Assembly: GCF_000027125.1 (NCBI RefSeq)
Contig: NC_017626.1
Reading direction: 5' to 3' (one strand)
Origin: Escherichia coli 042
GTDB taxonomy: Bacteria > Pseudomonadota > Gammaproteobacteria > Enterobacterales > Enterobacteriaceae
DNA: 64,000 bases
Part shown: positions 46,250-46,420 of the stretch, piece after piece
Layout of the letters: the number at the start of each line of letters is the position of its first letter
Position numbering within the stretch: position 1 is the stretch's first letter
The notes under the pieces: model-generated
Databases searched by the model: none
Told to the model about the DNA's origin: nothing
The model's input: the letters and a program-made list of their open reading frames with translations, nothing else
Translations under genes and position numbers: made by a program

Positions 46250-46420
46250 ACCGCACCCATGCCGGAGGCGACGCTGCGCGTCTTGTCCGGCCCACGAAAA
46301 TGTAGGTCGGATAAGGCGTTTACGCCGCATCCGACATTCGGCGCACCATGCCGGAGGCGACGCTTTGCGTCTTGTCCGGCCTACGAGAATCCAGGTCGGG
46401 TAAGGCGGAGCCGCTCTCCG
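46250..46420. repeat. REP/BIME-type extragenic palindromic repeats, two roughly 65-bp direct copies
   Basis: (c)accatgccggaggcgacgct(g/t)tgcgtcttgtccggcc(c/t)acga(a/g)aat...ggtcgg(a/g)taaggcg at 46250-46318 and 46340-46408; GC-rich palindromic units typical of REP elements. Confidence 0.7.

What the first reader, a model, noticed from the sequence alone, without database searches (positions are those of the whole stretch)
46250..46420. REP/BIME block with two roughly 65-bp direct repeats between gabT and gabP
These are typical extragenic palindromes, possibly modulating mRNA stability between gabT and gabP. It is an ordinary feature, noted because the ORF track shows overlapping spurious ORFs here.
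Basis: partly seen in the sequence, partly recalled or inferred. Interest (0 to 1): 0.15.

Follow-up and report, generated by a model that had tools for sequence, protein, structure and literature searches.

The report
REP palindrome cluster between gabT and gabP
The block is an ordinary cluster of four E. coli repetitive extragenic palindromes (a BIME-2-type element) inside the GABA operon; the only unusual point is that this strain has a rare four-palindrome version of a site that differs between strains.

Summary
The gabT-gabP spacer (46249-46511) holds two 62-nt direct repeats, 46257-46318 and 46346-46407, with 55/62 identical bases and a period of 89 nt. Chance expectation is about 1e-19.

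Each repeat is one unit of a BIME-2-type REP array. The order is Z2-like REP A (+), Y REP B (-), Z2-like REP C (+), then a decayed chimeric Y' REP D (-).

- A REP half-site consensus hits only here in the 64 kb (3 hits against 0.36 expected).
- Rfam's naRNA4 model, which represents one Y-linker-Z2 unit of REP325, scores 70.4 bits against a threshold of 59.5.

K-12 has only three REPs here and lacks the second repeat. E. albertii and some E. coli have five. 1304 of 5426 complete E. coli genomes have no REP at this site. The window's exact arrangement occurs in 41 of 5426 genomes and looks like a 62-nt deletion from the five-REP form.

The most likely role is a local, weak, partial attenuator and upstream-mRNA protector. 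In K-12 RNA-seq, gabT reads about 9 times higher than gabP. This role is inferred, not shown, and a neutral passenger is nearly as likely.

The overlapping ORFs are spurious.

Noticed in passing: the next 85 nt form a conserved two-hairpin gabP leader that masks the Shine-Dalgarno sequence. Rfam has no match for it.

The parts
46246..46248 (+). gabT stop codon TAG. A 12-nt spacer (46249-46260) separates it from the first REP stem.
46257..46318 (+). Direct repeat copy 1 (end of a linker, REP A, short linker, 5' arm of REP B)
   Evidence: reference copy of family D1; 55/62 matches to copy 2
46346..46407 (+). Direct repeat copy 2 (end of linker, REP C, short linker, 5' arm of REP D)
   Evidence: 89% identity to copy 1, spacing 89
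46261..46295 (+). REP A, Z2-like palindromic unit. The stem is 46261-46291. The tail is CCAC where the family has CTAC.
   Evidence: half-site hit, 2 mismatches; closest to Z2, 30/37; hairpin -20.3 kcal/mol, z -2.2
46302..46335 (-). REP B, Y-type palindromic unit in inverted orientation. GTAG is at 46302-46305 on the + strand and the stem is 46306-46335, with the AA/GC internal mismatch.
   Evidence: - strand hit; 32/35 to Y; -18.8 kcal/mol, z -4.0
46336..46349 (.). Head-to-head linker ATTCGGCGCACCAT (14 nt) between REP B and REP C
   Evidence: aligned to the linker of the naRNA4 consensus
46350..46384 (+). REP C, Z2-like palindromic unit. The stem is 46350-46380 and the tail is CTAC.
   Evidence: 1 mismatch; (-20.3 kcal/mol, z -3.4)
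46395..46422 (-). REP D, a decayed Y' unit that is chimeric here. Its 5' arm AGGTCGG is Y-like and the rest, GTAAGGCGGAGCCGCTCTCCGGC, is the old Y' shared with Citrobacter and a Klebsiella MAG. CCAG replaces GTAG.
   Evidence: (-12.7 kcal/mol alone, z -1.0; -44.8 kcal/mol when paired with REP C)
46305..46381 (+). One complete Y-linker-Z2 unit on the transcribed strand. It matches Rfam RF02564 (naRNA4).
   Evidence: 70.4 bits against a gathering score of 59.5; the - strand gives 54.5 bits
46430..46514 (+). Adjacent conserved gabP leader, not part of the REP block. It has an AU-rich stretch, hairpin 1 (46447-46477) and hairpin 2 (46478-46502) that pairs CUCUC with the GAGAG of the Shine-Dalgarno sequence. 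The gabP ATG is at 46512.

Best explanation
What it is (confidence about 0.95). This is a BIME-2-type cluster of repetitive extragenic palindromes in the gabT-gabP spacer of the E. coli csiD-lhgO-gabDTP operon.

The site varies between strains. The window carries a rare allele, best explained as a five-REP allele that lost 62 nt by recombination between the second Y and the old Y'. That event left a chimeric last unit.

How it most likely works (inferred, confidence about 0.45). The block is transcribed as part of the operon. Its stable hairpins lack a U-tract, so they would act as a local 3'-UTR-like element inside the operon. They would slow or partly stop transcription into gabP, partly through Rho. 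They would also shield the gabD-gabT message from 3'-to-5' exonucleases. The outcome is more transaminase mRNA than permease mRNA. The effect is probably modest and allele-dependent.
For: Identity:
- The repeat and palindromes are present.
- REP half-site hits occur only in this block, 3 against 0.36 expected.
- Units A and C are closest to Z2 and unit B to Y.
- The Rfam naRNA4 model hits above threshold on the transcribed strand. The same model hits all six REP325 units on their transcribed strand.
- BIME-2 is defined as Y plus Z2 in tandem, with copy number that varies between strains (PMC3333891).

Alleles:
- Alignment of the 3-, 4-, 5-REP and REP-free forms.
- Counts: 41 genomes with the window's junction, at least 79 with a second unit, 1304 REP-free.
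- E. albertii has five REPs and Citrobacter species have only Y'.

Mechanism:
- The hairpins fold at -19 to -20 kcal/mol each, and the spacer RNA has z = -5.5.
- No intrinsic terminator on the + strand and no promoter lie in the spacer.
- In K-12, DESeq2 baseMean values are gabD 648, gabT 795 and gabP 90.
- REP325 was shown to be a partly Rho-dependent attenuator and an upstream stabiliser. REP-containing tandem gene pairs have raised upstream/downstream expression ratios.
Against: - No experiment addresses this locus or this allele.
- The RNA-seq numbers come from K-12, which has the three-REP allele, and they are means over several strains and conditions.
- The gabT-to-gabP drop could instead come from the conserved gabP leader, which masks the Shine-Dalgarno sequence. 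That would give poor translation, Rho polarity and faster decay.
- 24% of complete E. coli genomes and several related genera do without REPs here. Copy number drifts between 0 and 5. Units A and D have lost the conserved GTAG/CTAC. All of this argues for weak or no selection on the block.
- The same preprint reports that REPs do not uniformly lengthen mRNA half-lives (legend, abstract).
- My Y, Z1 and Z2 consensus strings are from memory.
Confidence: 0.6

Rival explanations
1. Neutral or selfish passenger. The REPs are products of REP-associated transposase (TnpA-REP/RAYT) activity and of local recombination in a permissive spacer. They have no meaningful effect on gab expression.
For: - Presence/absence and copy-number polymorphism: 0, about 2, 3, 4 or 5 REPs.
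- The window allele is a rare deletion chimera.
- GTAG/CTAC is lost in A and D. That motif is required for TnpA-REP binding and cleavage (PMC3333891).
- Relatives such as Citrobacter R56, Pluralibacter and Shimwellia have no REP here.
Against: - The first REP sits 11-12 nt after the stop codon in all four REP alleles aligned.
- The block has the same orientation relative to transcription as REP325, which has measurable effects.
- There is a 9-fold mRNA drop across the spacer in K-12.
Confidence: 0.35
2. The expression step between gabT and gabP is set by the conserved gabP leader, not by the REPs. Hairpin 2 masks the Shine-Dalgarno sequence, so gabP is poorly translated and exposed to Rho and RNases. 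The REPs are incidental.
For: - The leader is invariant in all E. coli alleles, including the REP-free one.
- It is conserved in six genera, with 3 compensatory pairs and 98% of cells paired, against 29-58% when the structure is slid.
- CUCUC pairs with the GAGAG of the Shine-Dalgarno sequence.
- An unstructured stretch with more C than G lies just upstream at 46409-46448 (11 C, 6 G).
Against: - The leader's folding energy is no better than that of shuffled sequence (z = -0.1).
- The stems of hairpin 2 never vary, so they give no covariation evidence.
- No expression data separate the leader from the REPs.
- This reading is not exclusive with a REP effect.
Confidence: 0.3
3. Translation brake on gabT. 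A REP hairpin fewer than 16 nt after a stop codon stalls the terminating ribosome and lowers output of the upstream protein.
For: The REP A stem starts 12 nt after the gabT TAG. The rule is reported by Liang, Rudd and Deutscher 2015, as summarised in PMC12306157.
Against: I could not read the primary paper. gabT is not mentioned in the held text or supplements. There are no data for this gene.
Confidence: 0.2
4. DNA-level role as a gyrase binding and cleavage site, as shown for a subset of BIME-2 elements.
For: The block has the Y/Z2 BIME-2 architecture. Gyrase cleavage sites are over-represented in BIME-2, mainly in Y units (PMC6379681).
Against: Only a subset of BIME-2 elements is cleaved. 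No gabT or gabP entry appears in the held supplements. The element has fewer than two full units, and 24% of complete E. coli genomes lack it.
Confidence: 0.12
5. A nucleoid-associated non-coding RNA gene (naRNA4-like) that bridges DNA together with HU.
For: Rfam RF02564 hits above its gathering score.
Against: The Rfam model is simply one Y-linker-Z2 unit. It also hits the opposite strand at 54.5 bits and the single Y hairpin of K-12 at 40 bits. [quoted passage not shown] No promoter lies in the spacer.
Confidence: 0.03

Closest known systems
E. coli BIME-2 (tandem Y + Z2 REP pairs; Gilson/Bachellier nomenclature, summarised in PMC3333891)
   Same: - Palindromic units of 30-35 nt with an internal mismatch.
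- Y and Z2-like units alternate in inverted orientation.
- Short tail-to-tail linkers (6 and 8 nt) and a 14-nt head-to-head linker.
- Extragenic position at the 3' side of a gene.
- Unit number varies between strains.
- Copies within the locus resemble each other more than the family consensus.
   Different: - The block holds only about 1.9 periods.
- The Z2 units are a locus-specific variant, GCCGGAGG...CTTGTCCGGC where I recall GCCTGATG...CTTATCAGGC, with a 3-nt loop.
- The first unit has CCAC instead of CTAC.
- The last unit is a decayed, chimeric Y' that predates the array.
REP325 / naRNA1-6 between yjdM and yjdN (Rfam RF02564)
   Same: Same Y-linker-Z2 unit and same orientation relative to operon transcription. 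Both sit between two co-directional genes of one operon and neither has a U-tract.
   Different: REP325 has 12 units with a 100-nt period and scores 95-111 bits. Here there are 4 units, an 89-nt period and 70 bits. The measured effects of REP325 cannot simply be carried over to so short an array.
REPIN doublets (two inverted REPs folding as one long hairpin; described for Pseudomonas, from my own knowledge)
   Same: Neighbouring units can pair with each other into one long hairpin. These are at least as stable as separate hairpins: A+B -41.7, B+C -46.8 and C+D -44.8 kcal/mol.
   Different: The E. coli units belong to two different classes (Y and Z2). No mobility of this doublet was tested.
malE-malF REP as an mRNA 3' protector within an operon (Newbury, Higgins and colleagues 1987; from my own knowledge)
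   Same: REPs lie between co-transcribed genes, and the upstream gene is more highly expressed.
   Different: That case is experimentally shown; this one is inferred.

Membership tests
REP (repetitive extragenic palindrome) | Imperfect palindrome of 30-40 nt able to fold as a hairpin with an internal mismatch | tested here: met
   Units A, B and C fold at -20.3, -18.8 and -20.3 kcal/mol with internal loops. Unit D is weak at -12.7 kcal/mol, z -1.0.
REP (repetitive extragenic palindrome) | Conserved GTAG (CTAC on the other strand) at the foot of the palindrome | tested here: inconclusive
   Present in B (GTAG, 46302-46305) and C (CTAC, 46381-46384). A has CCAC and D has CCAG.
REP (repetitive extragenic palindrome) | Match to the family consensus | tested here: met
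   The 17-nt 3'-half consensus gives 3 hits against 0.36 expected. The Rfam covariance model is above its gathering score. The fixed-spacing full-length consensus with up to 3 mismatches gives 0 hits; by inspection the loops are shorter than the 5 nt it assumes.
REP (repetitive extragenic palindrome) | Extragenic and dispersed in many copies in the genome | tested here: met
   The block lies between the gabT stop and the gabP start. The 411-nt query finds a median of 6 places per E. coli genome even at megablast stringency.
BIME-2 | Y and Z2 units alternating in inverted orientation | tested here: met
   A and C are closest to Z2 and B to Y (consensus strings from memory). The Rfam unit made of a Y and a Z2 hairpin aligns over its full length (the unit is described in PMC4550694).
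BIME-2 | Short S linker tail-to-tail and s/l/r flank head-to-head | tested here: inconclusive
   The lengths fit (6 and 8 nt; 14 nt). I had no reference sequences for the S, l and r motifs. The 14-nt linker aligns to the REP325 linker.
BIME-2 | Tandem multiple copies, with the number varying between strains | tested here: met
   The block spans about 1.9 periods of 89 nt here. Alleles have 3, 4 or 5 REPs. Tandem Repeats Finder does not call it.
BIME-1 | Z1 + Y pair with a long L linker that frequently carries an IHF site | tested here: not met
   No unit is closest to Z1. No WATCAANNNNTTR match occurs on either strand of the spacer.
Intrinsic (Rho-independent) terminator | GC-rich hairpin followed by a U-tract on the transcribed strand | tested here: not met
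   No + strand site lies in 46249-46511. The only spacer hit is on the - strand at 46461-46446.
naRNA4 (Rfam RF02564) as a functional HU-binding RNA | Sequence and structure match to the model | tested here: met
   70.4 bits against a gathering score of 59.5.
naRNA4 (Rfam RF02564) as a functional HU-binding RNA | A discrete RNA species that binds HU and affects the nucleoid | not testable with these tools
   The role itself is disputed for the type element.
TnpA-REP (RAYT) substrate | A REP with 5' GTAG and a stem mismatch, next to an inverted REP carrying the cleavage sites | tested here: inconclusive
   The B/C pair has GTAG on each strand and the AA/GC mismatch (requirements from PMC3333891). 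Whether the enzyme is present or acts here was not tested.

The most novel reading that the evidence does not exclude
The gabT-gabP spacer could be a two-part polarity control. The first part would be a strain-variable REP array (0-5 units) that sets how much operon transcript reaches gabP. The second would be an undescribed, conserved two-hairpin leader (46430-46514) that gates GABA-permease translation by masking the Shine-Dalgarno sequence, perhaps in response to a signal. Natural REP alleles such as this rare four-unit form would then be heritable expression variants of GABA uptake.
Probability: 0.15. Interest if true: 0.45.

Novelty: already known. Interest (0 to 1): 0.12.

Why it matters
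It matters little as a discovery. REP/BIME elements are the commonest repeats of E. coli, and variation in their number between strains is documented.

The locus has two practical uses. First, it is a clean natural series (0, 3, 4 and 5 REPs in front of an invariant leader) for testing whether REP number tunes expression within an operon. Second, it is a warning that Rfam's naRNA4 model fires on an ordinary Y-Z2 REP pair, and that ORF callers produce spurious ORFs across such blocks.

The adjacent conserved gabP leader is the more interesting lead.

Tried and rejected
- The full-length REP consensus with a fixed 5-nt loop and up to 3 mismatches gave 0 hits. By inspection the loops here are 3-4 nt, so I used the half-site search and the covariance model instead.
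- Tandem Repeats Finder gave no rows; the block holds about 1.9 periods.
- The K-12 RefSeq copy lists no repeat feature at gabT-gabP. The same copy lists none at REP325 either, so this absence says nothing.
- The promoter scan of the spacer found none. An independent gabP promoter is therefore not supported by this simple scan.
- IHF consensus: none found, so this is not BIME-1.
- A literature search for gabT/gabP together with REP found nothing relevant. No paper combines gabP, Hfq, sRNA and UTR.
- Liang et al. 2015 is not held, so I cited it second-hand through PMC12306157.
- The supplements of the gyrase Topo-seq paper, the RepRanger paper and Ton-Hoang et al. have no gabT or gabP entry, or are not held.
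- I looked for 'Box C' in one review to name the repeat in the REP-free allele and did not find it. That name remains from memory only.
- I rejected the two ORFs across the block as real genes. Allele length differences of 26, 62 and 88 nt are not multiples of three, and the K-12 counterparts are 60 and 94 aa instead of 92 and 137.
- I rejected reading the naRNA4 hit as a distinct sRNA gene.

Full report
**Setting.** The window is E. coli. A 411-nt query across the site is 100% identical to strain Ecol_316 and matches 5425 of 5426 complete E. coli genomes. NCBIfam identifies the following genes:
- L-2-hydroxyglutarate oxidase, 42215-43483
- GabD, 43506-44954
- GabT, 44968-46248
- GabP, in an ORF that runs 46449-47912; the profile aligns from residue 22, so the start is the ATG at 46512
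- CsiR, 47915-48595

RefSeq annotation of the identical strain gives the same gabT end and gabP start. The spacer is therefore 46249-46511, 263 nt, inside the co-directional csiD-lhgO-gabDTP operon.

The repeat finder reports two copies of a 62-nt ungapped direct repeat, 46257-46318 and 46346-46407, at 89% identity and 89 nt apart. That is 55 of 62 matches. The expected number of such pairs by chance in the 901-nt region is about 7.5e-20.

**Anatomy.** Read on the + strand the spacer contains, in order:
- a 12-nt spacer after the TAG stop
- REP A, 46261-46295: GCCGGAGGCGACGC-TGC-GCGTCTTGTCCGGC plus CCAC
- a 6-nt linker
- REP B, 46302-46335, inverted: GTAG plus GTCGGATAAGGCG-TTTA-CGCCGCATCCGAC
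- a 14-nt linker
- REP C, 46350-46384, like A with a TTT loop and tail CTAC
- an 8-nt linker
- REP D, 46395-46422, inverted and decayed

Compared with Y, Z1 and Z2 consensus strings that I supplied from memory, A and C are closest to Z2 and B to Y. D is a poor Y. As RNA, A, B and C fold at -20.3, -18.8 and -20.3 kcal/mol, and D at -12.7. Neighbouring units can also pair with each other into long hairpins of -41.7 to -46.8 kcal/mol. The whole spacer folds with z = -5.5 against shuffles. The 89-nt period is one Z2 + short linker + Y + long linker unit, which is what produces the direct repeat.

**Formal REP tests.**
- A 17-nt consensus for the REP 3' half with up to 3 mismatches finds three sites in the 64 kb, all in this block. 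Shuffles give 0.36, and none of 100 reach three.
- The classic 38-nt consensus with a fixed 5-nt loop finds nothing at up to 3 mismatches. By inspection the loops here are 3-4 nt and the Z2 copies carry locus-specific substitutions.
- The curated Rfam model RF02564 (naRNA4) matches 46305-46381 on the + strand at 70.4 bits, above its gathering score of 59.5. It matches the opposite strand at 54.5 bits.
- That model is one Y-linker-Z2 unit of REP325 (PMC4550694). On K-12 it hits all six REP325 units at 95-111 bits on their transcribed strand, where the period is 100 nt.
- The Rfam hit therefore confirms the BIME-2 architecture. It does not point to a separate sRNA gene.
- No IHF consensus and no Z1-like unit is present, so this is not BIME-1.

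**Comparison with K-12 and other strains.** The site is polymorphic (alignments).

| Form | Content | Spacer length | Where found |
|---|---|---|---|
| 3-REP | one Z2-Y pair, a 32-nt unique segment (ATCTGTACGTGAACAGGAAGAAATCTATGTTG), then Y' | 236-237 nt | K-12, O157, strain WP4 |
| 5-REP | two Z2-Y pairs, the unique segment, then Y' | 325 nt; 328 nt in E. albertii | strain Res13-Sevr-PER07-33; E. albertii |
| 4-REP | two Z2 units, one Y and the chimeric Y'; no unique segment | 263 nt | the window |

- The window's form equals the five-REP form minus 62 nt. Its last unit starts like a Y (AGGTCGG) and continues like Y' (GTAAGGCGGAGCC). This fits a deletion by recombination between the second Y and Y'. 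That origin is an inference from the alignment.
- The window's junction is contiguous in 41 of 5426 genomes.
- A Y-linker-Z2 junction like the window's is present in at least 79 genomes. This is a lower bound, because megablast misses variants of the linker.
- 1304 genomes carry a REP-free allele. It keeps an older spacer sequence (GTTGCTAAGGGAATGATAACGATGCAGTAAAAA) that is also seen in Citrobacter sp. R56, Pluralibacter and Shimwellia.
- The REP-free allele also contains a different GC-rich palindromic dispersed repeat, with a median of 17 places per genome.
- Citrobacter werkmanii, C. youngae and Citrobacter sp. Cu233 have only a well-formed homologue of Y'. A Klebsiella MAG also carries it, after other sequence I did not characterise. 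Y' is therefore the oldest REP at this site, and the Z2-Y units were added in Escherichia.
- This pattern of variable tandem number with locus-specific unit sequence is what the literature describes for BIME-2 (PMC3333891).

**The ORFs.** ORFs 46166-46444 (+) and 46217-46630 (-) cross the block. The alleles differ by 26, 62 and 88 nt, none of which is a multiple of three. In K-12 the corresponding ORFs are 60 and 94 aa rather than 92 and 137.

**Mechanism.** The following points are shown:
- The block lies on the transcribed strand of an operon, 12 nt after the gabT stop.
- It forms stable hairpins.
- It has no U-tract terminator on the + strand and no sigma-70-like promoter.
- It has the same orientation relative to transcription as REP325.

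The rest is inferred from other work. For REP325, a 2026 preprint reports partial Rho-dependent attenuation of the downstream gene and stabilisation of the upstream mRNA, and no nucleoid compaction. It also reports that REP-containing tandem gene pairs have raised upstream/downstream expression ratios, with large variance and no uniform half-life effect (10.64898/2026.03.23.713779).

That preprint's DESeq2 tables for K-12 give these baseMean values: glaH 85.7, lhgD 276.7, gabD 647.6, gabT 794.7 and gabP 89.6 (column identity checked). This is a roughly 9-fold step exactly at this spacer. K-12 carries the three-REP allele, and the values are means over several strains and conditions.

I therefore commit to a local attenuator plus upstream-mRNA protector that favours gabDT over gabP, at about 0.45.

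**Rivals.**
- Neutral passenger (about 0.35). The arguments are the 0-5 copy variation, the REP-free 24% of genomes, and the loss of GTAG/CTAC in A and D. That motif is required by the REP transposase in vitro.
- The conserved leader, rather than the REPs, sets the step (about 0.3, not exclusive).
- Stop-proximal ribosome stalling that lowers GabT (about 0.2). The 16-nt rule is cited second-hand from PMC12306157.
- A gyrase site (about 0.12). BIME-2 enrichment is reported in PMC6379681, with no data for this locus.
- An HU-binding naRNA (about 0.03).

**Side finding: the gabP leader.**
- The last 85 nt or so of the spacer (46430-46514) are invariant across all E. coli alleles, including the REP-free one.
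- They are conserved upstream of gabP in E. albertii, another Escherichia lineage, Citrobacter, Pseudocitrobacter, Pluralibacter, Hafnia and Shimwellia.
- RNAalifold predicts two hairpins. The first has three pairs with compensatory changes: CG/UA, CG/GC and AU/GC.
- The second has invariant stems around a variable loop, which carries a 13-nt insertion in Shimwellia. It pairs CUCUC with the GAGAG of the gabP Shine-Dalgarno sequence.
- On nine sequences, 98% of cells are paired, against 29-58% when the structure is slid. Five of 500 shuffles reach three double-sided pairs.
- A covariance model finds exactly one copy per enterobacterial gabP locus. It finds none in the 27 non-enterobacterial loci searched (Pseudomonas, Burkholderia, Paraburkholderia, Vogesella, Aquitalea, Acinetobacter and a proteobacterial MAG) and none elsewhere in the window.
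- Salmonella enterica subsp. diarizonae and a Klebsiella MAG lack both hairpins.
- Against: the folding energy is no better than that of shuffled sequence (z = -0.1), and there are only nine sequences.
- Rfam has no match, and I found no paper on it in a narrow search.

**Verdict.** The added facts are:
- it is a BIME-2-type array;
- the 'two direct repeats' belong to a rare four-REP deletion allele that is absent from K-12;
- the Rfam naRNA4 hit is generic;
- any regulatory effect is inferred.

Interest is low (0.12).

Noticed in passing
window 46430-46514 (also L012, L015, L023, L044, L045, L046, L055, L064, L078, L105, L109, L126): A conserved two-hairpin leader lies directly upstream of gabP. 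It is invariant in all E. coli spacer alleles and conserved in six genera of Enterobacterales. Hairpin 1 has three compensatory pairs. Hairpin 2 pairs CUCUC with the GAGAG of the Shine-Dalgarno sequence. Rfam has no match, and Salmonella diarizonae and a Klebsiella MAG lack it. Its folding energy is not better than that of shuffled sequence.
   Followed up: partly
L004 400-709 (E. coli 2013C-3342), L126, L044; corresponds to window 46249-46425: 1304 of 5426 complete E. coli genomes have a REP-free gabT-gabP spacer. It keeps an older sequence shared with Citrobacter R56, Pluralibacter and Shimwellia. It also holds a different GC-rich palindromic dispersed repeat with GGGAGAGGG and GGGTGAGGGG arms, found at a median of 17 places per genome. 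From memory this may be the Box C family, but I could not verify that.
   Followed up: partly
L044 (Pseudocitrobacter faecalis DSM 27453) and L070 (uncultured Pseudocitrobacter MAG): Both records carry gabT-gabP spacers nearly identical to E. coli alleles, the REP-free type and a five-REP-like type respectively. This suggests mislabelling, contamination or recent exchange.
   Followed up: no
window 46442-46458 versus 46306-46322 and 46395-46407: The start of the gabP leader (TAAACGCGTGACCCGAC) is 82-85% complementary to the 5' arms of the Y-type REPs B and D (pairs I2 and I5). In other words it resembles a Y REP 3' arm. This could be chance in GC-rich sequence or a relic of an old REP.
   Followed up: no
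window 46461-46446, - strand: A terminator-like site lies on the antisense strand: hairpin CGCGTCGGGTCACGCG followed by TTTAATTGTT. It overlaps the leader, and the equivalent sequence is conserved in other genera. No convergent gene is present.
   Followed up: no
window 3384-3746 (+) and 37995-38070 (-): There is a tmRNA gene (ssrA, tag ANDENYALAA) and a tRNA with a CAT anticodon. The gabT-gabP block holds the only matches to the REP half-site consensus and the only Rfam naRNA4 hit in the 64 kb.
   Followed up: no
L128 2806-3385 (K-12 REP325) and L007: The E. coli genomes copy of the K-12 RefSeq record shows no REP or repeat_region features, even at REP325. Absence of such a feature in this tool's tables therefore carries no information.
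   Followed up: yes
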